A stretch of DNA of 63,836 bases, counting the filler, from Reticulomyxa filosa (lineage: Eukaryota > Protista > Foraminifera), in assembly GCA_000512085.1 (NCBI GenBank). It is 16 parts of 16 records of this genome, joined end to end, with 100 filler letters (N's around TTAATTAATTAA, not from the genome) between each part and the next. Parts side by side here need not be neighbours in the genome. Positions count along the whole stretch, not along the records: positions 17,936 to 26,118 come from ASPP01007406.1; 15 more parts are not named here. One strand, 5' to 3'. Under the pieces are notes generated by a model, which saw only the letters and a program-made list of their open reading frames with translations, did not search any database and was not told where the DNA came from. Positions 17,936 through 37,999 of the stretch are shown piece by piece. Each line of letters starts with the position of its first letter. Position 1 is the stretch's first letter. The position numbers and the translations under genes are program-made.

Positions 17936-18756
17936 ACTCTATCATCCTTCGGATGGACTTAGATTTGCAGAGAAACGGGACAATGGTTTTGTAGGGCCGG
18001 GCTCAAACGAGGCAGTAAGTGAGATACACAATTGTAGCGATAAGGACGCTTCATTCAGCAATTACTTGTCTCAAAACAGAACCAATAGCAATACTTCATT
18101 TGGTCAAAAAGCTACAGAATTATTGGATTAATTAATCATTTCTCTCCCATACACAAAGTAACTTTTTTTAAAAAAAAAAAGAATGGGTCAAATTGTTTTT
18201 CTCTTTTTTGATTGTTATGTGCTTTGGGTTTATTTTATTTAGCTAGTTTAAAATTACTTTTTTCCAAATTCTTTTAGCCTAATTGAATGTTATGTAAGAT
18301 ATTATCTCTGGCCGGTGGAAAGATAATCAGTCTATGAGAGAAACAAAAAGAGACGTTTCAATATTTTTTGTGTATGATCGAAGATCTATTAAAATGTCAA
18401 TGAATAATCTATAGAGACAAACTGTTGCTTTCTGAATTGTAATACGAAAGTTGTTTCTTCAACAAAATTTCAACAGAAACAAGTAAATAAAACAAAAAAA
18501 ACAAAGAATGAAACAGAAAGCTAACCAAACAGTAAATGAGCGTGTTTAGGAAAAATTGTTCCTAAGCTCAAATAAAATGTTTCTTTGACCTTGTTGGGTG
18601 TAGTTTTTTATTTTACAATGTTTACAATCGCAGATCCCTGTTTTCCTTTTAACTTTGAAAGTGACATAATCTTGAAAGTTACATTGAATTCAGCTTAAAA
18701 ATGTTTGAAAGAAGTTATGTATAATTGTTAGTCTGATTTTGAAATAATGTTGAAAT

Positions 18757-19759
18757 TCATTTATTGTTTTCTTGTTTATACAATTGTTTTTGTCTGTGAT
18801 ATCGTTGCAGTTCTCTCCCAAAACTTCTGCCTTTGATTTCATGCCAATTTTTTTTTGGCGGTCTGACTCTTTCACACTCGATTTTTTGTCGTTTGTAGAG
18901 AATATATTCTTCTTGTTCCCTTAATTGTGCAAGCATGTACTCACTTGCAAATTGTTCAATTCCTGCCTCTCTAATTATTGGTCTTTTTGCCTCATGTAAA
19001 TGGTCACGAAAGGGTTGGTCCCACCAGTTCATTGCTCTATGTAACCGAAAAATTTAAACAATTACTGTTAACTATTAAGTTAAAAAAAACAAAACCAGTG
19101 AATCGTTTTTAAAATACTTGCTGATTAATTTCTTTTTGGGTTGCTCATTTATTGTTTGTTGCTTTCCCAAAATCTGAATGGGTGGTTTGTAACAACTTGG
19201 TATGTTCGATACTAAATTTGGATCATACCTTGCTTTTTCAATATTCGTTGCTTGTAGTTGTAGTTTTTTAAGCATATATTCAATTCCCTCAAGAATCTGA
19301 GGCTTATTCATTATATTTTCCTGTGGAAAAGTCCTCTCCTTATATGACTCTAATGTACATAAAGAAATTTTGTTTAGTTTGTTATTTAATGACCAGAAAA
19401 AAGTTGGGACTATCTTTTAGTATTTTAATATAGTACTTGCCAGTATTTGTGCTGGAGGTGTTAGTTGGAGACGCTGAAGCCGAAAAATTAATATTTTCAA
19501 CAAAGTGATCTATCTTTTCTTGATTAGTACAACTTAGCACGGAAGTGGGCGGCTCAGAGTTAACTGTCTTACCCAATATACTTGTACTTGAAGATTTACT
19601 GTTAAATTGAGACAATACATTGTGCTCTGATAGTGTTGCAGATGAAACCTCTTTCTGTAATTCCTTGTTTTGAGAAGGAGCTATGAGATCGTCAATAAAA
19701 TACAAACAACTTTTTCCTTTTTTTTTTCCGTTGGACATTACTCGCTCAATCCTCTGCAT
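18757..19759 (-). CDS. Hypothetical multi-exon protein
   Basis: Three collinear minus-strand ORFs separated by short intron-like AT-rich gaps. The last exon has a conserved-looking ERVRPPKKNWHEIKGRSFGREL motif that I cannot assign. Confidence 0.5.
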
Positions 19760-20129
19760 AAGTTGTTCATTGTTTACATGAAGCTGAGGTCCCGTAAATT
19801 TGGAGGGCGTTTAACAAGCTTTTTCGTCGTTTAACAGATAGTTGTACTGTCATCTTACGTGTTTTTTTATTCCTAAAATTTATTTAAAATTATCGGAGAA
19901 TTACTCATAATGAACGATAATTAGTTATTCACATCTTTTATTAACAAAATGACGAAACGTTAATATTTACGAATTAATTGCTACATTTATTCTCTCATTA
20001 AGTAATTTATTGCATTGTGAGAGTTTTTTCAAAAAATTGAATAGAGCTGGAAAAACAAACTAGTACTTAATCGTTCAGTTTAAAGTTAAACTTTTTAAGG
20101 GAAAGAAAAATAGTATCAACATAACAGTG

Positions 20130-20791
20130 ATGGCTCGTCGTATACGAAAGGAATTGAAAGATTTTGTTAAAAAGGTCCAACAATTCCAGACTATCAATTC
20201 AGTTTTGCTCCAGTAGAGGAAGGTAATGTAACACTACTGAAAGCAATTTTATTAGGTCCAATTAACACTCCATATGAAAATGGGATATTTGAATGTATGA
20301 TAACATTGCCTACTACCTATCCATTTTCATGTCCAAAGCTAGATTGGAAAACTCCAATTCATCATATTAATTTTGAATCTTCAAGTCAATCATATCATAT
20401 TTGCTTTGATTGGGGTTGTTCTTGTAACATGGATCAATGGAGCCCAGCAAAGACGATAGACAAACTTCTTTGCACAATATATTCATTGTTTTACTTTCCC
20501 TGTGTCTCTAACTGTTGTGGAAAAATTAAATATTCAAACAACACACGATTAAAATATAACTATTTGGCAGCACAAGAAACATTTGAAAAAGCAAATTCAA
20601 AAGATAGAGGTGCTCAAATAGTTCAAAAATATGAAACTTATTGTAAACAATTTGAAACTTTTGACAAATATTTGATATATTGCAAAGAGTTAATAGAGAA
20701 TTCTTTTCAAATCTATGAACCAGAGCAATTAGTTGACAACGGAATACTTGTTTTAATTATTGAATATGTTGATATTTTTGATGTTGTGTGA
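20130..20791 (+). CDS. Ubiquitin-conjugating enzyme E2 (divergent); frameshift in A5 run at about 20169-20173
   Basis: MARRIRKELKDF, LLGPINTPYENGIF, LPTTYPFSCPK..WKTPIHHIN, catalytic ICFD, QWSPAKTI..LL..IYSL. Confidence 0.85.
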
Positions 20792-22012
20792 TTCTGTTGA
20801 TTCAGTTTTTCTTTTATCATCAATGTATCAAAATAAAATGTGATCGTCAGTCTTCATTTTAAAATAACATACTGATTAACTTCATCTTTAAAACTCACAA
20901 CAGTGGTAAGCAACCCTTTTTTAAAAAAAGCTTGTGAACTTTTCGTGTTTGCGATCCGAACGAGAAACTCTTGTTTGAGAAAAGCCTTTTTACTTTTTGT
21001 TGCCTCCGACACCAAAAGGAGAATGGATTGCATCATCATTTTTTTGGTAAGAATTCTTTTTTTTGAAATATTTCGTCGCGACTGTCCGTAGGTGAAAAAA
21101 TACTTTTGTTGCGATGACGTACAGTTTCCAAATAACCGAAATAAGTTGCACTTCCACAAAAATAAAAATTGAACTGTTCAATAATGTGCAAACTCGGAAT
21201 ATTTAAACTGACCCTTGTTAATTTGCCCAGGACCTGAAAAGAGAAAAGTTAATCAATTATTTTTTTTAGATTTATTTCTATGATGTAATCTAATACGTTT
21301 GATTCAAAAATGAAATAATAATTTCATGTTGCTACTGATTTTGAAAGAAGACAATAAACTCTTTCCAATTTGTTAATTTTTTAGCCTTGTTTAAAATGTG
21401 AAATGTTTTTGAATAGGATTTCATTGGGTACAAGGTATTTTTAAGATTAGATGAGGGCTTCTAAATTAGTGTAAATCTAATGCTTTTGGATTACTTTTAA
21501 AAAATTGCAATTTTTCTTGATAATTTTTAAAATATCCAAATGGAAGTAACGGGCGCTTCAGCGTAAAGTCGCAAAAAAACTTTTTAAGAGATGTGAAATA
21601 ATCTTTTAAAATCATTTTTTGCAATTTTTAATGTAAATAATAGTCTAATATGATGTTAATGGCAAAAAAAAATTTGTATTACAATGTGTATATTTTCATT
21701 AAATACAAGTACTGCAATATCATTTCAAAAGAATTTAAGTACGGGCGCACCTTCGTTATTTAGAAGAAGCCAAATTTTTTTAGAAACGCTTTTGAACTTT
21801 GATATGTCCTTGTTTGATGAGATGCGACATTGCATTGCTTAAAAAATGATTTAAAAAAAATTTGAAAAGATGATTTCACTACATGTTGGCTAAACATTTA
21901 CTACATTTTTAAAAACGTTATAAAAAAACATACCATACAAAACAATCCAATACTAAAAAATATCCTAAACGACTAAACAAAAAAGACGAGTACAGTTAGA
22001 GCTCGTCCATTG

Positions 22013-23680
22013 TTAACGCCTAATGTGCATCTCCAAATACTCGCATCTCTTTTGGAAACGATCAGCTGGGACTTCCTCCCACATTTCTTTGTTTTGCATG
22101 ACTTTGTACAAACCATTGAGGTTATTCTTTTCCACATACGATCGCAGGGCAGATTGCTTGGATGGATGAAGATCGTCCCGAAAGCATAGATCAAACAAGA
22201 TGTCCTGCATCAAAGGATGCAAGCGCGAAAAATCAACATTCCAACCTTGCTTGCACTTAGAGGTGACCATTTCCTCGTGTTCTTTGGCATGCTCGCAGAA
22301 CAATAACCGTTGTTGTTCTTTGGTCAAAATGTCCCTTGCCAAAATGGGATTTTTTTGGAGCAAGTCGAACTCTGTCTTTGCTTCGTCCTTTGTCTTTCCA
22401 ACAGCGGGCTTCAAGACATCGACAACGTTGCGAGAGACACCAATTTTGTTCATCATCTTGAGGAATTTCTCGGTGGACGTTTGTCCCAAATCATAGCCTC
22501 TACCAATGGTGACACCCGAGTTTGGAGGCAAATGTATTTTGCGGCTATGAAATGGCGAGTCCTCTTGTTCTCGTCCCTCGATCAAAAAAGTGAAGCAATG
22601 TCTGGTTGGAAGGTCCTTGTTGTCCAAAGATCCATTACCGCACTTTTGTTTGAAAGAGTCAAACTTCTCGTTGCTGATATCTTTTGAAAAACTTAACTGG
22701 TCGTTTTTTGAACGCGAAGCAGCTGCACTTTCCTCCGTCTTCGATTCGGAGGCTACTTGGCCTTGTTGTTGTTGTTGTTGTGACGGTTGCTTCATTTCGG
22801 TCTCGGATACGTCCTTCTTTCGCTCTGTTTCTGGGAAGCCCCTTGTTTTCGGCACTTCCATTTTACGCTCGCGTTCACTCGAGCGCTCCTCGACGTCCCG
22901 TCGCTCGTCACGATGCGTCATGTCGTGATAACTTTTCGGATCTCGCACCCCTTTCGTCGGATCACTGGGTGCGGAGGTCTTTTTCTCGTTCTTTTCCTTC
23001 AAATCTCTTCGATCATTGCGATCGCTCTGCGTCATTCCAGGACCCACTTCTTTCTCTTTGTCGTTCTTTCCAAATGCCTCTTTAACGTTCTCTGCTGTCG
23101 ATCCTACCGTGGATTCTTTGGGCTTGGAGCCTCTTTCTCTTTCTCGTTCTCGCTCTTCTTGTCCTCTCTCCCTATCTTCTCTCTCTTCTATTACCTTTTC
23201 TCCTCGCTCCTTTTCTCTTTCCTTTTGTCTCTCTCTTTGCTCTTCTTGTCTCGTCTCGATGTCTCTTTTCTCCTCTTGCTTCGATGGCAGATCTCGCTTC
23301 TTCTCGTCTTTCTCACTTCGCGTAAAGTCACTCCCGCTACTGGCTCTAGTGGTGTCCTTGTCCGTCCTTTCACCTGCTTCGGGACTCACTGCTGAAGGTT
23401 GCACTGTTCCGCTTTCGCGCTCGCGGCTTTCTTTCCATTCTTTCTCGTCTTTTCGACTGGGGTCATCCGTGTTCTCCTTACGCTTAAAATCGTCGGGTGT
23501 CTTCATCTCGTTGTAAACTCTGACCGGTTCCTCCTTTGTACTGGTCTGAGCTGTATTTTGCGGTGTTTGGTCATTGCCTTTGGGAGAGCCCGTTGACACA
23601 CCCTTGGTAGGGTCTGTAGCAGTGCCTCTTGGAGAGCTGGAAGTATCTTGCTGCTTCTCAGTCGGATTCGTATTTCCCAT
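22013..23680 (-). CDS. Intronless protein: MG myristoylation-like start, charged disordered region, C-terminal pesticin-C-like muramidase (lysozyme-fold) domain
   Basis: FTFLIEG...HSRKIHLP.NSGVTIGRGYDLG ... LTKEQQ.LLF ... FSRLHPLMQDILFDLCFR matches the pesticin C-terminal lysozyme family. The ORF is uninterrupted. Confidence 0.8.
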   Translation of the reverse strand: MGNTNPTEKQQDTSSSPRGTATDPTKGVSTGSPKGNDQTPQNTAQTSTKEEPVRVYNEMKTPDDFKRKENTDDPSRKDEKEWKESRERESGTVQPSAVSPEAGERTDKDTTRASSGSDFTRSEKDEKKRDLPSKQEEKRDIETRQEEQRERQKEREKERGEKVIEEREDRERGQEERERERERGSKPKESTVGSTAENVKEAFGKNDKEKEVGPGMTQSDRNDRRDLKEKNEKKTSAPSDPTKGVRDPKSYHDMTHRDERRDVEERSSERERKMEVPKTRGFPETERKKDVSETEMKQPSQQQQQQGQVASESKTEESAAASRSKNDQLSFSKDISNEKFDSFKQKCGNGSLDNKDLPTRHCFTFLIEGREQEDSPFHSRKIHLPPNSGVTIGRGYDLGQTSTEKFLKMMNKIGVSRNVVDVLKPAVGKTKDEAKTEFDLLQKNPILARDILTKEQQRLLFCEHAKEHEEMVTSKCKQGWNVDFSRLHPLMQDILFDLCFRDDLHPSKQSALRSYVEKNNLNGLYKVMQNKEMWEEVPADRFQKRCEYLEMHIRR

Positions 23681-25007
23681 CGCAACAGATAACTGCAAAT
23701 TCAATTAAAAAAATAAGAAAAGATCTTTTACAATTTTTCTTGCACAAACGAGAGAAAACGAACTGCTTCCACAACAACAAAAAAAGGTACCACTTCTTTG
23801 TTGTACAACTATTTTTCAAGAACAATTACCCTCTTTTGGTGCAAGATTTCAATCACTTGGATGTTCTATCAAATTTGCTGTATGCTTCAGACACTCACTA
23901 CTTTAAAATCATATACAGCATTTAGTTTCTTTATAAACATAAGGTTAAAACTAAAAAATTTGCTATCTCTAACAAACCGTATACTGCAATTAATAGTAAT
24001 TTATTTTCCATATTTAATATTACAATTCTATATCGTAGCTGTTAGGTTGCATTGCATTTCTGATTTTTTTCGCAAAGTTACTTCAGTTTCAAAAACTCAA
24101 AAATTTTGACCAAACTCGTTAGTCCAAAAATGAATGTAAATGAAGATAAGACTTTCTAGACAAGATTTAGAGGTCTTAATTCGTTTCCAGCAAGACACGC
24201 AAAAACTATACGCCGATAACCACAAACAACTGACGAAAAAAACACTCGGTTAAGTTATTCACACGCTGCTCAAAACAAGCAATGGAAAATCAAATTGAGA
24301 TTAAAATATTCTTAAAGGTAAATTAACATAACTGTGCAATTGACGTGTTCGATTTTTAAACAATTACTTTTAACTCTTGTTGGGCTATGCCATTGAAATG
24401 TTGTTAGCATTAAAGATTTAAAATTGTGTCAATTTCACAAAAGCCGTTTTTTTTGTTTATTGTTGTTGATTTCAAAAAAGTTTTAATGCGAAAATGACGT
24501 TTTGGGAATTTTCTTTGTACATCTATCTTTGTGGTACTACATTTCGACATTTTTCGTTCTGTAATGAAAAATGTAAAATTTTGTTTTGAAGAAGGTTTGA
24601 AAAGAACGAAGATGAATAAGTTTGTATAGCTTTATTTGCTTGGCCTTGGTCTGGTGTAGTGTATTGAATGAGGATAAGTATTTAAGAGGTGGTCGTTTAA
24701 ATTTAAAAATTGCGTGTGACAGAAGTTTAAAGCAAAAAACAAAAAGAAAAGCTAATGAAACCAATGTGAAGAAAGTAGTGTGGAATGAAGCCATTGCATC
24801 ACTACAAGCTTTGGCTGAAAATGTTACAGTTAAATGAAAACAGTGAATTGTAGAACTAAGTTTTCGGTAAATATTTTCAACCCATGAATTTACTGTTTGA
24901 ATTTCAGATCACATTTGTGAACGTTGTGATTTAGTTGTTTCGAATGACTTTTGATAGGATGGGGGGGGGGATATGTGTGTTGTAAAAAAAAGACGTCTGC
25001 ATTGAGA

Positions 25008-26118
25008 TCAGTCAGTAGTATCAATCTCAATAGCAACTTGCGTCAAGTCTCCAGTAAGTAAGGTGGAGTTGTTGGTTTGGTCATGTTGTGTGGTTGCATC
25101 TTGAGCGGGCTCTTGTAGTGCTCGTCTCGCCTCACTTTCTTCTTGCGTGCCGTGAGTCAACGCCGCCGCCTCCTCTTCAGTGTGTGCGTGCGTTGGCTGC
25201 GGTGCGTCTCTTTGATAATGCTGATCGAGGCATGTGCAAACTTGAATCCCGCAAATCCCGAAAAAGTTCTTTATCACAGTAATGACAATTGCGGACGGAA
25301 TCAAAATCAAGATAAGAAAAAAGAACATTAACCAACCCATCCAACAACCACCTGTTTTGTGTGCACATATGTTGCACGTGCGTGCACATAAAAACCATCA
25401 AACATACAAAACACGTTGGAAACACAAGCTGCACGTTTCAAAACAAGGGAACAAAAAACACAAAGAATAAAAAGTAAAAAGAACCCAAAATGTTGGAAAA
25501 TGTGCACTGTCTTTGATCCTGAGATGTCATTGACAATGACTCACAGCACCACAAACACGGAAAGCAAATCAAGGCCATTGGCAAGGCAATACATAAAGCT
25601 GGTATTGCAAATATGCAACCAAATAATACAATAATAATAAGCAACCAGCGTGGAGGCATCACCATTTCCGATTCCATGCCTTCAAACTGTTTGCCTGCAC
25701 ACGCGCTGTTGCCCTCTTTGAAATGGCTTGGAATCGGTGTGTCTTCGATTTCTTGTAAACACAGCCAACAAAACGAACATCCGCATTTGATACACTTTTT
25801 TTATTTATTTGTTTATTTATTTATTTGTTTGTCTGTGTCATAGGACATGGTCCTATTAATCGAACAAAATTCAAAAAAAAAAAAAAAAAAAAGGGAACAG
25901 AACTTTCATGTGATTGCAACCACCGCTTTTCTCAATTAAGTATTTGCATCGAGGACAACTTTTGGCGTCTTTGGTGACCTCTTGGTTTAGCTTGTCCTCT
26001 TTGAGCGTGCGCGATTCATAGGCTTCGCAGCGCTCGTCGATAGGGTGTGCGACGCTATGATACAAACAATATTTGGTATCGCATTTTTGGCACGTCATGA
26101 TTGGATTGTGTGGATCGC
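25008..26118 (-). CDS. RBR (RING-IBR-RING) E3 ligase with C-terminal TM/Cys-rich segment, 5'-partial
   Basis: IBR end CQKCDTKYC..H..H, RING2 KSCPRCKYLIEKSGGCNHMK|CIKCGCSFCWLC, followed by hydrophobic segments (RNF19/RNF144-like layout). Confidence 0.85.
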
Positions 26119-34469: not shown

Positions 34470-36673
34470 NNNNNNNNNNNNNNNNNNNNNNNNNNNNNNN
34501 NNNNNNNNNNNNNTTAATTAATTAANNNNNNNNNNNNNNNNNNNNNNNNNNNNNNNNNNNNNNNNNNNNATTGTGCTCCAATGCTTGCATTCTAAACACA
34601 AATAATTTGAATTTGTTTACAAAAAAAAAAAGACAACAATACTTTGAGCAAGTTTTGCTATTAATCAATTTTGATAGAACAAATCTTTTTAAAAAAGTGT
34701 TCAGATAAATTAGAAATGAAAACAAAACAGTTGTTCAAAGACGCTTAATCAATAAAGCGAATAATAAACAATCCAACCATCTCCTTTCTAATATTGCTCA
34801 AAAAGGATAACCGGTTTATTGTATCCAAAAAACGACTTGACCATGATTTCAATATTTTCGTTACTCTTGGTGTGTGACATCGGAAGTGCATACTACATAA
34901 TTGTAGTACATGTGAAGGAATATCCAACTAACAGGACATTTTCACATAATTAATTTTGGGATTGAAAGTAGTGTTCATTGTCATTTGTGTTTGAGTTCCA
35001 TAACGCATATCGACACCTTCAAGATTTGTTGTGTTGATTCTCTCATCCAAATTGTTTCTGCGTGGACGTGGACACACGCCTTGCTTCTTCTTACGATAGA
35101 CCCACACTTCTTTGTACCGAGACTTTGCCATTTCTTTTCATTCGATCCGTTATCGCTTGCTATATTGTTTGTAATAGTCCATATGCTCTAAATAACCCTT
35201 TCATTCTTCTTTTATTTTCTTCTATCCTTCCCTTCTTAATCTCCAAACCTAATGTAAATCACTTCAAAATGAAAGGGCTTGTTTTTGATGGAGATATATT
35301 ACAATCACTACAAATATGATACAAACAACATACATCAACACCAAACTTCAAAAAGAGCTTATCTTCTTTACTTCTGATTGCCTTCTCTTATTTCTTTTTA
35401 TGTTCTATGCTATCCTCTTCCATTATTCTGAATAACGTATATCCATTCGTTTGAATTTGAATAATGTCAACCCATTGAATATTCATCCACTTGAATATCT
35501 CCATCGTTCTTTGCCATCATTGTCTGAAGGTGCATCCACTACGACAACTCTGGTACAACTGTTTTCTCTTTCATTTCTTTTGATTGTGTGTAATCTTATC
35601 ACAAAAATACACATTTGAAATGTAATTGTGATAAGCATCAAGGGAAGAACCGAGCTGGATAATGACACGTCTGTCGATAGATATGGATTCATGTTGTCTC
35701 CTTCATCACCGATGTGACGGCGATGCAATTTTTAATTGCTCACGAGATACCAATTTGCCAATTTGCTAATATGCTTCAGAAATTGCTGATCCTGATTCCA
35801 ATCCCTCTGTTCGCCGGACGTTGCTGCATGCAATTACATCCAAATAATTGTCCCAGCAGTGCCTTTACCCAATGATAAGCTTATTCGACGATGATGACGT
35901 TGATACATTGAAAAGCCTTATTATAAGAAGTTGGTTGGTCACGTTCGGTGTTTGATTGTTGGTAGCAACACGAATTTGGCGAGCAAGCAATTTGAGTAGC
36001 AATATTGTGGAATATACCCAAGTATCTGCGAACAGCACATATACTACTTGTTGCAGAAGACAAAACGCTCAATGCTTGGACAACAGCCAAGATACGGTCT
36101 GCAATGGAATGTGAAAAGTTGGCCATCAAAGATATTCCACTTGTGAATTCGATGATGATACTACAGTTATACGTGTCATATGCCGACAATGCTTCGGAAG
36201 AATTTTTTTTAAATATCTACATCCTTCACTTCAATCAACGTTTCCATTTGGAAAGGATCTTTTGGATTGCTGTCTTCTCATGTGGCAAGACAGAAAAGTC
36301 AAACAATGACACATCATTTGCTTTTCCGTACATGTCAATAATAACTACGACTGCCTCCATTGCGCCAATAGACAAACTGGTCGATATACGATTTATAAGT
36401 TGTATTATCATATCACATAGTATGTCATTGGCTCGAATGATTGATTGTGCGCGCTGTATGGTATTAAATAAAAAAAAAGTGGAGAATTGACTACAACTGC
36501 TGCTGTTCCGGACNNNNNNNNNNNNNNNNNNNNNNNNNNNNNNNNNNNNNNNNNNNNTTAATTAATTAANNNNNNNNNNNNNNNNNNNNNNNNNNNNNNN
36601 NNNNNNNNNNNNNGCGAGGCGCAAACGCCGTCGTCTCGACCGGAGCGAAGCGCAGTGGAGCAGCCGTGTTTGA

Positions 36674-36679
36674 GGTCAA
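36674..36679 (-). promoter_or_regulatory. -35 box (TTGACC) of the predicted IS110 circle-junction promoter; -10-like CATGTT at 37829-37834
   Basis: Joining the right end to the left end over the CT core gives TTGACC-N17-CATGTT, directed into the bridge RNA. Confidence 0.6.
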
Positions 36680-37623
36680 GCGATTTTTGGATTCCGCCAC
36701 TGGGTTTGATCTCGCAGCATTGCGTTGAGAATGACGACGATCTTGCGCGAGCAAGCGGCGATGATGAGACGCTTGGACTTGCCGTTGGCGGCCAGTCGGC
36801 TGGCGAAGGCGGCGATGGTGGGGTTTCTGCGGATCGCGGCCAAGGCCACCATGTGAAGGATGGGACGCAGGTCGTTGCGTCCTCCGGCAATGGTGGAGCG
36901 TCGTCGGCTTTTGCCGCTTTTCTTGTCTGCAGGCGCGACGCCGCAGAGCAGAGCTGCGGGACGGCGGCCGGTGTGGCCCAGCTCGGGCATGCGAGCCAGC
37001 AGGTTGCCGGTCAGCACCGGCCCAACACCGATCATCGACCGCAGGATCTCGGCCTTGCGCCGCATCTCCTCGTCTTCCTCGATGACCCGGGCGATATCGG
37101 CGTCGATGCTCTTGAGATCGGCCCTGGCACGCTCGAGGGTCTGCTCTACAAGGCAACGCAGAGCCGGTTCGCGCAGATGCTCGAGCCGGTTGCGGGCCTC
37201 GTCGATGGCCTTGCGCAGCATGCCGCGCACGATGAGGAATTCGCCCAGTCTGCTGGCTTTTCCGGAGCGTCGGGTCAGGCCCGCGCCGGGGAAGTGCTGG
37301 CAGTACAGAGCGATCAGTCGGGCGTCGATCGGGTCGGTCTTGGCCAGGATGCCGGCCGCTTCGGCGAAGCGACGCACACGGGCCGGATTGAGCAGGTGGA
37401 CGACCAGGCCGTCCGCCTCCAAGGCTTCGATGACCTCGCGCTCGTAGCCACCGCTGGCTTCGAGAGCGACCTCGCCGATGCCGGCCTGGCGCAGGTGACG
37501 GGCCAGATCGCCCATGCCGCGTTTGTCGCGGCTGACGACAAAGCCAAGCTTGCTCGCCAGGATATGAACGTCGAGCTTGTCCTTGCTGACGTCGATGCCG
37601 GCGACTTGTACACTCTTGTCCAT
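36676..37623 (-). CDS. IS110-family DEDD recombinase/transposase
   Basis: GIDVSKD, LEASGGYE, KTDPIDA (DEDD RuvC-like); IGVGP, GVAP...KSGK (catalytic Ser region), GGR..LR..L.M, A..RK. GGAAGG RBS upstream of ATG 37623. Confidence 0.95.
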   Translation of the reverse strand: MDKSVQVAGIDVSKDKLDVHILASKLGFVVSRDKRGMGDLARHLRQAGIGEVALEASGGYEREVIEALEADGLVVHLLNPARVRRFAEAAGILAKTDPIDARLIALYCQHFPGAGLTRRSGKASRLGEFLIVRGMLRKAIDEARNRLEHLREPALRCLVEQTLERARADLKSIDADIARVIEEDEEMRRKAEILRSMIGVGPVLTGNLLARMPELGHTGRRPAALLCGVAPADKKSGKSRRRSTIAGGRNDLRPILHMVALAAIRRNPTIAAFASRLAANGKSKRLIIAACSRKIVVILNAMLRDQTQWRNPKIA

Positions 37624-37629
37624 CTTTGT

Positions 37630-37822
37630 GATCCCTTCCTTGCATGCGGTTTTCTGGACCGTGCAGCCGTACGGGCTTTGCGAAGAGACGGCGCGGGCAC
37701 CTTGCTCCACTTCGGTGTCCAACGGGGCTTACCTTGAGACCTTACGGGCTCCGCGTCGCCAGCGTGGGAGGGGGTTGCCACCCCCTTCCACGTTCCGCCC
37801 AGTCAGGCGGTTTTCCTTCGGC
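37630..37822 (-). ncRNA. Predicted bridge RNA (5' hairpins, target-binding loop, donor-binding loop); ends approximate
   Basis: Contains in the expected order LTG AAGGTCTC (37736-37743), RTG AGTGGAG (37705-37711), LDG ACGGCTGC (37663-37670) and RDG CATGCAAG (37639-37646), each matching the reconstructed target or donor. Inner stems GGT/ACC and CGGT/ACCG. Confidence 0.85.
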
Positions 37823-37925
37823 CGCGCAAACATGCAAGAGACCTTCTCTCGACGACTTGCCGGCTTTTTGGTGGAGAGAAGGTCTCTCCACTCCGCTTCG
37901 CTCCGGTCGAGACGACGGAGATGTC

Positions 37926-37999
37926 TCAGGAATCCGCCGTGAACCCGATCTTCTTCACGATCGGGCCCCAGCGGTCGTAGCTCGATTTCAACAGCGCGC
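37926..37999 (-). CDS. C-terminal fragment of a probable Bug/TctC tripartite tricarboxylate transporter substrate-binding protein
   Basis: ALLKSSYDRWGPIVKKIGFTADS* resembles Bug-family C-termini. GC-rich bacterial codon usage. Confidence 0.55.

What the first reader, a model, noticed from the sequence alone, without database searches (positions are those of the whole stretch)
22013..22640. Bacterial pesticin-type muramidase domain in a eukaryotic gene: candidate horizontally acquired antibacterial effector
Seen: FTFLIEG..HSRKIHLP..SGVTIGRGYDLG and a downstream L.P.MQDILFDL.FR motif. The gene is intronless and lies on the same contig (17936-26118) as an E2 and an intron-containing RBR ligase, so contamination is unlikely. 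Established: the pesticin C-terminal domain is a T4-lysozyme-like peptidoglycan hydrolase with catalytic Glu, Thr and Asp, mostly found in bacteriocins, T6SS effectors and phage lysins. All three residues appear present here (EG, VTIG, YDLG). Inference: a domesticated bacterial toxin domain used for digesting prey or controlling intracellular bacteria.
Basis: partly seen in the sequence, partly recalled or inferred. Interest (0 to 1): 0.82.

Follow-up and report, generated by a model that had tools for sequence, protein, structure and literature searches.

The report
Bacterial wall-cutting toxin domain in protist
A single-celled eukaryote, likely a foraminiferan, has a gene ending in a pesticin-type lysozyme domain with all three catalytic residues in place; it was likely taken from bacteria and is predicted to cut bacterial cell walls, and related genes with secretion-type leaders occur in jellyfish.

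Summary
ORF 22013-23680 (-) encodes 555 aa: a charged, low-complexity N-terminus and a C-terminal pesticin-type domain (Pfam E 2.7e-9; model pLDDT 90; best structural match pesticin, Z 13). E368/T391/D397 have pesticin's exact 23+6 spacing. Simple contamination is unlikely: E2 and IBR genes share the contig, the nearest tree neighbour is a Reticulomyxa filosa protein, and two unrelated runs hold diverged copies, one of them also a spliced piece of the neighbouring gene. Bacterial origin is inferred from the family's distribution; no donor is resolved. New lead: three jellyfish-type proteins with hydrophobic leaders share a six-residue deletion with it and are its sister group in three trees, though AU tests reject no alternative. 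Captured wall hydrolases in eukaryotes are a known kind; ten searches found no report of this family in eukaryotes. Activity untested.

The parts
22013..23680 (-). Full ORF, 555 aa from the first ATG; no intron inside; GC 47%, GC3 50%
   Evidence: a database gene call on an 8183-nt contig starts at Met59 (P0035)
22016..22609 (-). Pesticin-type / T4-lysozyme-fold domain, about residues 358-555
   Evidence: Pfam, model, fold searches, Atlas
22577..22579 (-). Glu368, predicted general acid, equivalent of pesticin Glu178
   Evidence: Glu in 371 of 372 other rows; 23 residues before the Thr as in pesticin; unchanged in runs X1 and X2
22508..22510 (-). Thr391, equivalent of pesticin Thr201
   Evidence: aligned to pesticin by the family profile; Thr in 371 of 372 other rows
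22490..22492 (-). Asp397, equivalent of pesticin Asp207
   Evidence: aligned to pesticin by the family profile; Asp in 370 of 372 other rows
22175..22180 (-). Arg501-Asp502: the family's RGD motif, here with Asp in place of the near-invariant Gly
   Evidence: Gly in 367 of 372 other rows, Asp in none of the four commonest states; no difference listed here in X2
22640..23680 (-). N-terminal 347 aa: 46% charged, 14% hydrophobic, short polyQ, likely disordered; no signal peptide or membrane segment
   Evidence: no Pfam or usable Atlas hit; in-frame indels of 9, 6, 3 and 3 nt in X2
23132..23284 (-). Predicted 51-residue E/R/K-rich single alpha-helix (residues 133-183, 73% E+R+K)
23693..23719 (-). 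Likely 3' splice site 12 nt upstream of the ATG; candidate donors at 23790, 23829 and 23898
   Evidence: not covered by any laid contig, so untested
20171..20791 (+). Neighbouring E2 ubiquitin-conjugating enzyme frame (context, same contig)
   Evidence: Pfam UQ_con E 5e-17
25008..26118 (-). Neighbouring intron-containing IBR/RBR ligase gene, 3' part (context, same contig)
   Evidence: Pfam IBR E 4e-6; 133-nt GT-AG intron 25352-25484 skipped in an X2 contig

Best explanation
The window holds a eukaryotic gene whose C-terminal domain has the pesticin/T4-lysozyme fold and an intact Glu-Thr-Asp triad; it was likely acquired from bacteria long ago and is predicted to hydrolyse bacterial peptidoglycan, likely from the cytoplasmic side because it has no signal peptide. 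Shown: ORF, family match, triad, lack of a hydrophobic leader, eukaryotic neighbours, diverged copies in two other runs. Predicted: the fold. Inferred steps: (1) a bacterial gene of the 'RGD' pesticin-like subfamily entered the lineage, gained a 347-aa low-complexity extension and gave at least one further copy (the R. filosa protein P0053); (2) the domain cleaves the MurNAc-GlcNAc bond as pesticin does, Glu368 as general acid with Thr391 and Asp397 placing the water (T4-type mechanism, recalled); (3) the disordered, helix-containing N-terminus acts as tether or spacer in place of the wall-binding or injection domains of bacterial relatives; (4) the targets are bacteria in contact with the cytoplasm (endobionts, prey released from vacuoles), with access to Gram-negative walls needing another factor to breach the outer membrane.
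For: Family and fold. Triad spacing 23+6 equals pesticin E178/T201/D207, whose Ala mutants are inactive (TssI2 likewise). Cleft-side residues kept: S379, R380, H383, P385, G395, D497, R541, R545. Among 95 longer relatives, partner domains are mostly wall-binding, wall-cutting or injection-linked: SH3_3 14, PG_binding_1 7, CHAP 3, LysM 2, eCIS_core 2, PAAR 1. Host residence: nearest row P0053 is a named R. filosa protein (support 94, 99/98, 96, 92 in four trees); X2 has one contig across 22367-23494 joining extension and domain, with in-frame indels only, and a spliced piece of the neighbouring IBR gene. pN/pS in the domain 0.35 against X2. 178 related stretches in bacterial and archaeal species genomes; the 80 shown span Myxococcota, Bacteroidota, Pseudomonadota, Bdellovibrionota, cyanobacteria. 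R. filosa has an associated Midichloriaceae bacterium, a possible target if the host is of that kind.
Against: No activity data. Matches only 34 of 45 conserved columns (median of 184 rows 95.5%), with Asp502 for a Gly kept in 367 of 372, Ala465 for Tyr and Lys431 for Gly. Long branch (0.97 to 1.98 against medians 0.46 to 0.63). Purifying selection is weak: 6 replacement and 5 silent changes against X2 (p 0.08), 5 and 2 against X1 (ratio 0.62). The assayed enzymes have Gln at a site that matters (tenfold loss in pesticin, full loss in TssI2), while this subfamily appears to have Arg there (362 of 372). No run is on record as RNA; no contig bridges this gene to its neighbours. The 5' end is uncertain, so the location argument is too. 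The window contains a bacterial contaminant contig.
Confidence: 0.48

Rival explanations
1. Host gene of bacterial origin and active muramidase, but delivered to food vacuoles or the cell surface for prey digestion, through an unseen 5' exon with a signal peptide or by unconventional secretion.
For: Likely 5' intron leaves the N-terminus open. Three jellyfish-type relatives have hydrophobic leaders. Captured hydrolases serve feeding in Trichomonas.
Against: The only short ATG-started, in-frame upstream exons found (8 and 14 codons) are too short and polar for a signal peptide; the first 70 residues have a hydropathy maximum of -0.61; a highly charged 347-aa extension is more usual for cytoplasmic proteins (inference).
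Confidence: 0.17
2. Host gene of bacterial origin whose domain has weak or no activity and now binds peptidoglycan as a sensor or scaffold, or is drifting.
For: Second-lowest conservation score among 184 rows; unique Asp502; long branch; weak pN/pS signal; 69 differences in 1107 nt against X2 while the neighbouring gene's piece has 1 in 148 (p 0.002).
Against: The catalytic segment is kept almost perfectly (16 of 17 conserved columns up to Asp397) and unchanged in X1 and X2; a drifting domain would be expected to lose these too. Asp is the commonest non-Gly residue at helix-terminating left-handed positions (recalled).
Confidence: 0.23
3. The gene belongs to a bacterium (symbiont or contaminant) and was joined to host DNA in assembly.
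For: The window holds a GC-65% IS110 contig; the gene's GC (47%) exceeds its flanks (28-31%); no independent read links the gene to its neighbours.
Against: Other eukaryotic-looking frames in the window reach GC 47-48% and GC3 54%; the flanks are over 1 kb of AT-rich DNA without long frames; polyQ and E/R/K low-complexity extension; splice-acceptor-like site; no relative above about 41% identity among 1.84 billion representatives; nearest row is a protist-annotated protein; the copy in X2 occurs with a spliced host piece.
Confidence: 0.07
4. The gene is an old eukaryotic inheritance or passed between eukaryotes, so that the foraminiferan and jellyfish copies stem from one capture.
For: Highest identity among 373 rows is to the jellyfish-type P0189 (40%); shared six-residue deletion and nearby motifs; sister groups in three 63-row trees (89/91, 81, 93).
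Against: The deletion also occurs in 9 other rows, two of them named Myxococcales; not joined in the 184-row tree and unresolved in the 373-row tree; AU tests reject none of five alternatives (p 0.19-0.65). This concerns route, not function, and is compatible with the best explanation.
Confidence: 0.3

Closest known systems
Pesticin activity domain (PF16754; PDB 4aqn, 4epf; PMC3390615)
   Same: Fold (Z 13.0, TM 0.53-0.60), Glu/Thr/Asp with 23+6 spacing, conserved Pro and C-terminal Arg residues.
   Different: About 20% identity; no translocation or receptor domain, no immunity gene; Arg-Asp where pesticin-like enzymes have Gln-Gly; eukaryotic gene with a low-complexity extension.
T6SS effectors TssI2 (V. 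fluvialis, PMC9620997) and VgrG3cp (V. cholerae, PMC9927483); pesticin domain in an eCIS locus (PMC8213781)
   Same: C-terminal pesticin-like domain; T-x3-G-x-D motif whose residues are essential in TssI2.
   Different: No VgrG, PG-binding or eCIS_core domain here; no injection machine; TssI2 needs Gln963.
Horizontally acquired wall hydrolases of eukaryotes: GH25 (PMC4241558), bivalve phage-type lysozymes (PMC5303276), Trichomonas GH19/GH25/NlpC-P60 (PMC12612818)
   Same: Same evolutionary theme: prokaryotic or phage peptidoglycan hydrolase in a eukaryote, with duplication and fusion to new sequence.
   Different: A different enzyme family; those cases have measured activity; this protein lacks a signal peptide.
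R. filosa ETO03762.1 (P0053; annotated 'EF hand domain protein, partial')
   Same: Nearest row in all four trees; shares the deletion and a Cys before the RGD motif.
   Different: 172-aa fragment without the catalytic half, on a 569-nt contig; keeps the Gly; has a C-terminal extension; no Pfam hit.
Scyphozoan proteins EP00794 P007036 (Sanderia malayensis), XP_065058978.1 (Rhopilema esculentum) and P0189 (EukProt, 'GoldUCD' gene model)
   Same: Same subfamily, intact triad, same six-residue deletion; up to 40% identity.
   Different: Short single-domain proteins with hydrophobic leaders, canonical RGD motif; annotated as uncharacterised.

Membership tests
Pesticin C-terminal muramidase domain (PF16754) | Profile score above the curated cut-off | tested here: met
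   37.6 bits against 25.8, E 2.7e-9, but only profile positions 17-87 of 156
Pesticin C-terminal muramidase domain (PF16754) | T4-lysozyme-like two-lobed fold with connecting helix, closest to pesticin | tested here: met
   Predicted model
Pesticin C-terminal muramidase domain (PF16754) | Catalytic Glu, Thr, Asp (E178/T201/D207) | tested here: met
   E368/T391/D397; Thr and Asp aligned directly, Glu by equal spacing and invariance
Pesticin C-terminal muramidase domain (PF16754) | Conserved Gln301 (substrate side) | tested here: inconclusive
   The likely equivalent column has Arg here and in 362 of 372 rows, Gln in 6; no direct alignment to pesticin at this site was obtained
Pesticin C-terminal muramidase domain (PF16754) | Muramidase activity on peptidoglycan | not testable with these tools
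   needs a bench assay
Pesticin proper (bacteriocin) | N-terminal translocation and receptor-binding domains, adjacent immunity gene | tested here: not met
   N-terminus is low-complexity with no Pfam or Atlas match; neighbours are E2 and IBR genes
T6SS/eCIS-delivered effector | VgrG, PAAR, RHS or eCIS_core domain, or a linked secretion locus | tested here: not met
   none in the protein or among the 7 frames of the contig scanned
Horizontally acquired eukaryotic peptidoglycan hydrolase | Located in the host genome | tested here: met
   same contig as eukaryotic genes, sister copy named from a protist, diverged copies in two runs; physical linkage rests on this one assembly
Horizontally acquired eukaryotic peptidoglycan hydrolase | Nested among prokaryotic homologues with an identifiable donor | tested here: inconclusive
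   inside a 99/96 clade of 48 rows with bacteria of several phyla, but no sister bacterium resolved
Horizontally acquired eukaryotic peptidoglycan hydrolase | Expressed by the host | tested here: inconclusive
   X2 holds the gene and a spliced piece of the neighbour, but its kind is only guessed, as DNA
Secreted or lysosomal lysozyme | N-terminal signal peptide | tested here: not met
   hydropathy maximum -0.61 in the first 70 aa; holds for the present start codon only

The most novel reading that the evidence does not exclude
A previously unrecognised eukaryotic lysozyme family: pesticin-type toxin domains captured once from bacteria and now shared by foraminifera and scyphozoan jellyfish, secreted in the animals and rebuilt in the protist as a cytoplasmic, tethered wall-cutting enzyme that polices intracellular bacteria.
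Probability: 0.15. Interest if true: 0.8.

Novelty: new variant of a known kind. Interest (0 to 1): 0.52.

Why it matters
It would add the pesticin-type muramidases, so far described from bacteriocins, injection systems and phages, to the short list of wall-degrading enzymes used by eukaryotes, in two distant lineages. For foraminifera it gives a testable candidate for how they handle prey or resident bacteria. For jellyfish it offers a candidate enzyme for lysozyme-like activity reported in extracts (PMC8625557, search listing only). The uncharacterised Arg-type subfamily (over 1,000 relatives) becomes testable through either copy.

Tried and rejected
No whole genome is held for this window, so paralogues could not be counted. 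Single-sequence search of solved structures gave only chance proteasome hits; the profile reached pesticin at E 0.027 only. NCBIfam: no family. Run search: no RNA holder listed; X3 and X4 gave nothing on the gene, and no laid contig covers the 5' end or the intergenic DNA, so these blanks are not used. Viral contigs: 1 relative among 127 pattern matches. Metagenome contigs: 24 of 588 matches, all ordinary family members at 32-43% to the query's first row. Single-sequence fold of the full protein was low-confidence throughout (pLDDT 45), so it does not itself prove disorder. Atlas look-up of the N-terminus: no usable hit. Repeats: only E/R/K low-complexity. Donor lineage: five constrained trees, none rejected; the two tests used a quick tree that was worse than the constrained ones. 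N-myristoylation at the MGN start was considered and dropped (Pro at the sixth residue; consensus recalled). P0045, P0058 and P0023 look eukaryotic but carry no names and are not counted as eukaryotic. Earlier findings of this scan: none on this sequence or genome. No complex was predicted, as no binding partner is claimed.

Full report
Observation. The quoted motifs lie in one minus-strand frame, 22013-23680, 555 aa from the first ATG. It matches Pfam Pesticin at E 2.7e-9, above the cut-off, over profile positions 17-87 of 156. An AlphaFold2 model from a 31-row alignment has pLDDT 90.4. All 9 Foldseek hits with E<=0.001 are pesticin chains, followed by T4 lysozymes; the independent aligner ranks pesticin first of 48,161 chains (Z 13.0, rmsd 3.2, 176 residues), then 4nso at Z 9.7. 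The Atlas gives pesticin-type clusters at 0.96. The feature is real.

Active site. In pesticin, E178A, T201A and D207A are inactive and P187A and Q301A lose tenfold (PMC3390615, passages); in TssI2 the equivalents E844, T863, D869 and also Q963 are essential (PMC9620997, passages and sections 6 and 8 part 1); D867 is needed in VgrG3cp (PMC9927483, passages). The family profile aligns T391 and D397 to pesticin's Thr and Asp; E368 lies 23 residues before T391, as E178 does before T201. Among 372 other rows the three are kept in 371, 371 and 370. Against this, the protein matches only 34 of 45 columns conserved at 80% or more, where the median of 184 rows is 95.5%, and it has Asp502 where 367 of 372 have Gly. 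The whole subfamily has Arg (362 of 372; Gln in 6) at the column that likely corresponds to pesticin Gln301, so the assayed enzymes belong to a neighbouring branch. Support that this branch still works on cell walls comes from partner domains in 95 longer relatives chosen from the 150 listed (lengths 257-795): SH3_3 14, PG_binding_1 7, CHAP 3, LysM 2, eCIS_core 2.

The rest of the protein. Residues 1-347 are 46% charged and 14% hydrophobic, match no family, and contain a confidently predicted 51-residue E/R/K helix. There is no hydrophobic leader. A T-rich acceptor-like site ends 12 nt before the ATG (16 T in 24 nt; 5 of 286 YAG sites of the contig reach 15), with candidate donors 98-206 nt upstream; the ATG-started in-frame exons found have 8 or 14 codons. 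'Intronless' therefore holds for the coding frame only.

Host gene or contaminant. The contig 17936-26118 carries an E2 frame and an IBR gene. Two of four listed runs, from two studies and two organism labels, hold the gene. X2 has one 1107-nt contig over 22367-23494 with 69 differences and only in-frame gaps, joining extension and domain, and a contig that skips a 133-nt GT-AG intron of the IBR gene; this suggests cDNA of a close relative, but the run's kind is only guessed, as DNA. X1 has five pieces of the gene. The triad codons are unchanged in both. Listed changes in the domain are 6 replacement and 5 silent for X2 (pN/pS 0.35, p 0.08) and 5 and 2 for X1 (0.62); differences near contig ends are not listed by the tool. 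The nearest row in all four trees is P0053, named as R. filosa ETO03762.1, from which I infer a foraminiferan host and a second copy in that lineage. Contamination is a live concern, since a GC-65% IS110 contig lies at 36614-37999, and no independent read links the gene to its neighbours. But its GC is matched by other frames of the window, and no relative exceeds about 41% identity among 1.84 billion representatives, 467 of which pass E 0.001.

Origin. A scan of one genome per prokaryotic species found 178 related stretches; the 80 shown span Myxococcota, Bacteroidota, Pseudomonadota, Bdellovibrionota and cyanobacteria. Bacterium-to-eukaryote transfer is the likely reading. The jellyfish-type proteins have hydrophobic leaders and intact triads. 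P0189 is the most identical of 373 rows (40%). A segment that is 41 residues in 276 of 364 measured rows is 35 in the window protein, the three jellyfish-type rows and 9 others, two of them named Myxococcales; P0053 shows the same gap. The motifs used there were chosen after seeing the data. On 63 rows (34 hand-picked, 29 named loci under 52% identity, out of 373) the two groups are sisters at 89/91, 81 and 93; they are unresolved in the 373-row FastTree and apart in the 184-row tree that held one jellyfish row. AU tests reject none of five alternative groupings (p 0.19-0.65). A shared origin is a lead, and no donor can be named.

How it most likely works. The domain is predicted to cleave the MurNAc-GlcNAc bond like pesticin; the extension likely tethers it; lacking a leader, it likely acts in the cytoplasm on bacteria that reach it. 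R. filosa has an associated Midichloriaceae bacterium (PMC10847448, passages), which shows that such targets exist in this group, nothing more. Odds: host-resident gene about 0.9; active hydrolase given that about 0.7; cytoplasmic rather than vacuolar about 0.75; together about 0.48. Rivals are vacuolar digestion (0.17), a binding or decaying domain (0.23) and contamination (0.07).

What is known. Capture of wall hydrolases by eukaryotes is established: GH25 (PMC4241558, abstract), bivalve phage lysozymes with fusion and duplication (PMC5303276, abstract), Trichomonas GH19/GH25 (PMC12612818, passages), g-type lysozymes (PMC12855814, passages). A survey of 473 pesticin-domain proteins mentions Proteobacteria and phages; a pesticin domain is noted in an eCIS locus (PMC8213781, passages). 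I found no paper on this family in eukaryotes: pesticin + eukaryot + horizontal gene transfer (35 papers, 20 listed), pesticin + protist (7), pesticin + jellyfish (1, unrelated), pesticin + foraminifer (0), and broader searches (listings only). The Rhizaria gene-transfer preprint has none of the terms lysozyme, peptidoglycan, muramidase or pesticin in its main text; its supplements were not seen. Subscription journals are not covered, and databases already assign PF16754 to these proteins automatically.

Verdict. Real, likely host-encoded, likely of bacterial origin; a member of the pesticin-type domain family by profile, fold and triad, not a bacteriocin or injected effector; activity and location untested. 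New variant of a known kind; interest 0.52, carried partly by the jellyfish link.

Noticed in passing
P0049, P0189, P0190: Scyphozoan jellyfish encode short pesticin-type proteins with hydrophobic leaders and intact Glu/Thr/Asp, annotated as uncharacterised; the Rhopilema gene sits on a 15-Mb contig. Likely secreted lysozymes of bacterial origin, possibly a better test case than the window gene.
   Followed up: partly
window 36614-37999: A separate contig with GC 65% encoding an IS110-family transposase (Pfam E 1e-14): likely bacterial contamination in the same assembly.
   Followed up: yes
P0045, P0058, P0023: Unnamed family members with eukaryote-like low-complexity parts (Asn-rich, Gly/Ser-rich, an acidic insertion inside the domain); P0045 and P0058 form a strongly supported pair. 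Possibly further eukaryotic captures.
   Followed up: partly
P0053 (ETO03762.1): Annotated as an EF-hand protein, but it is the C-terminal half of a pesticin-type domain and has no Pfam EF-hand hit.
   Followed up: yes
window 20131-20791 (+): The E2 gene's long frame has no early ATG; a plausible start at about 20131 is in another frame, suggesting a small intron or a frameshift near 20170-20200.
   Followed up: no
window 18757-19810 (-): Three consecutive short frames (142, 113, 98 aa) between the contig start and the E2 gene with no clear Pfam match for the two scanned; possibly one broken or intron-split gene.
   Followed up: partly
L001-L080: Many of the named carriers of this subfamily are predatory or gliding bacteria (Myxococcota, Bdellovibrionota, Saprospiraceae); enrichment was not tested.
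   Followed up: no
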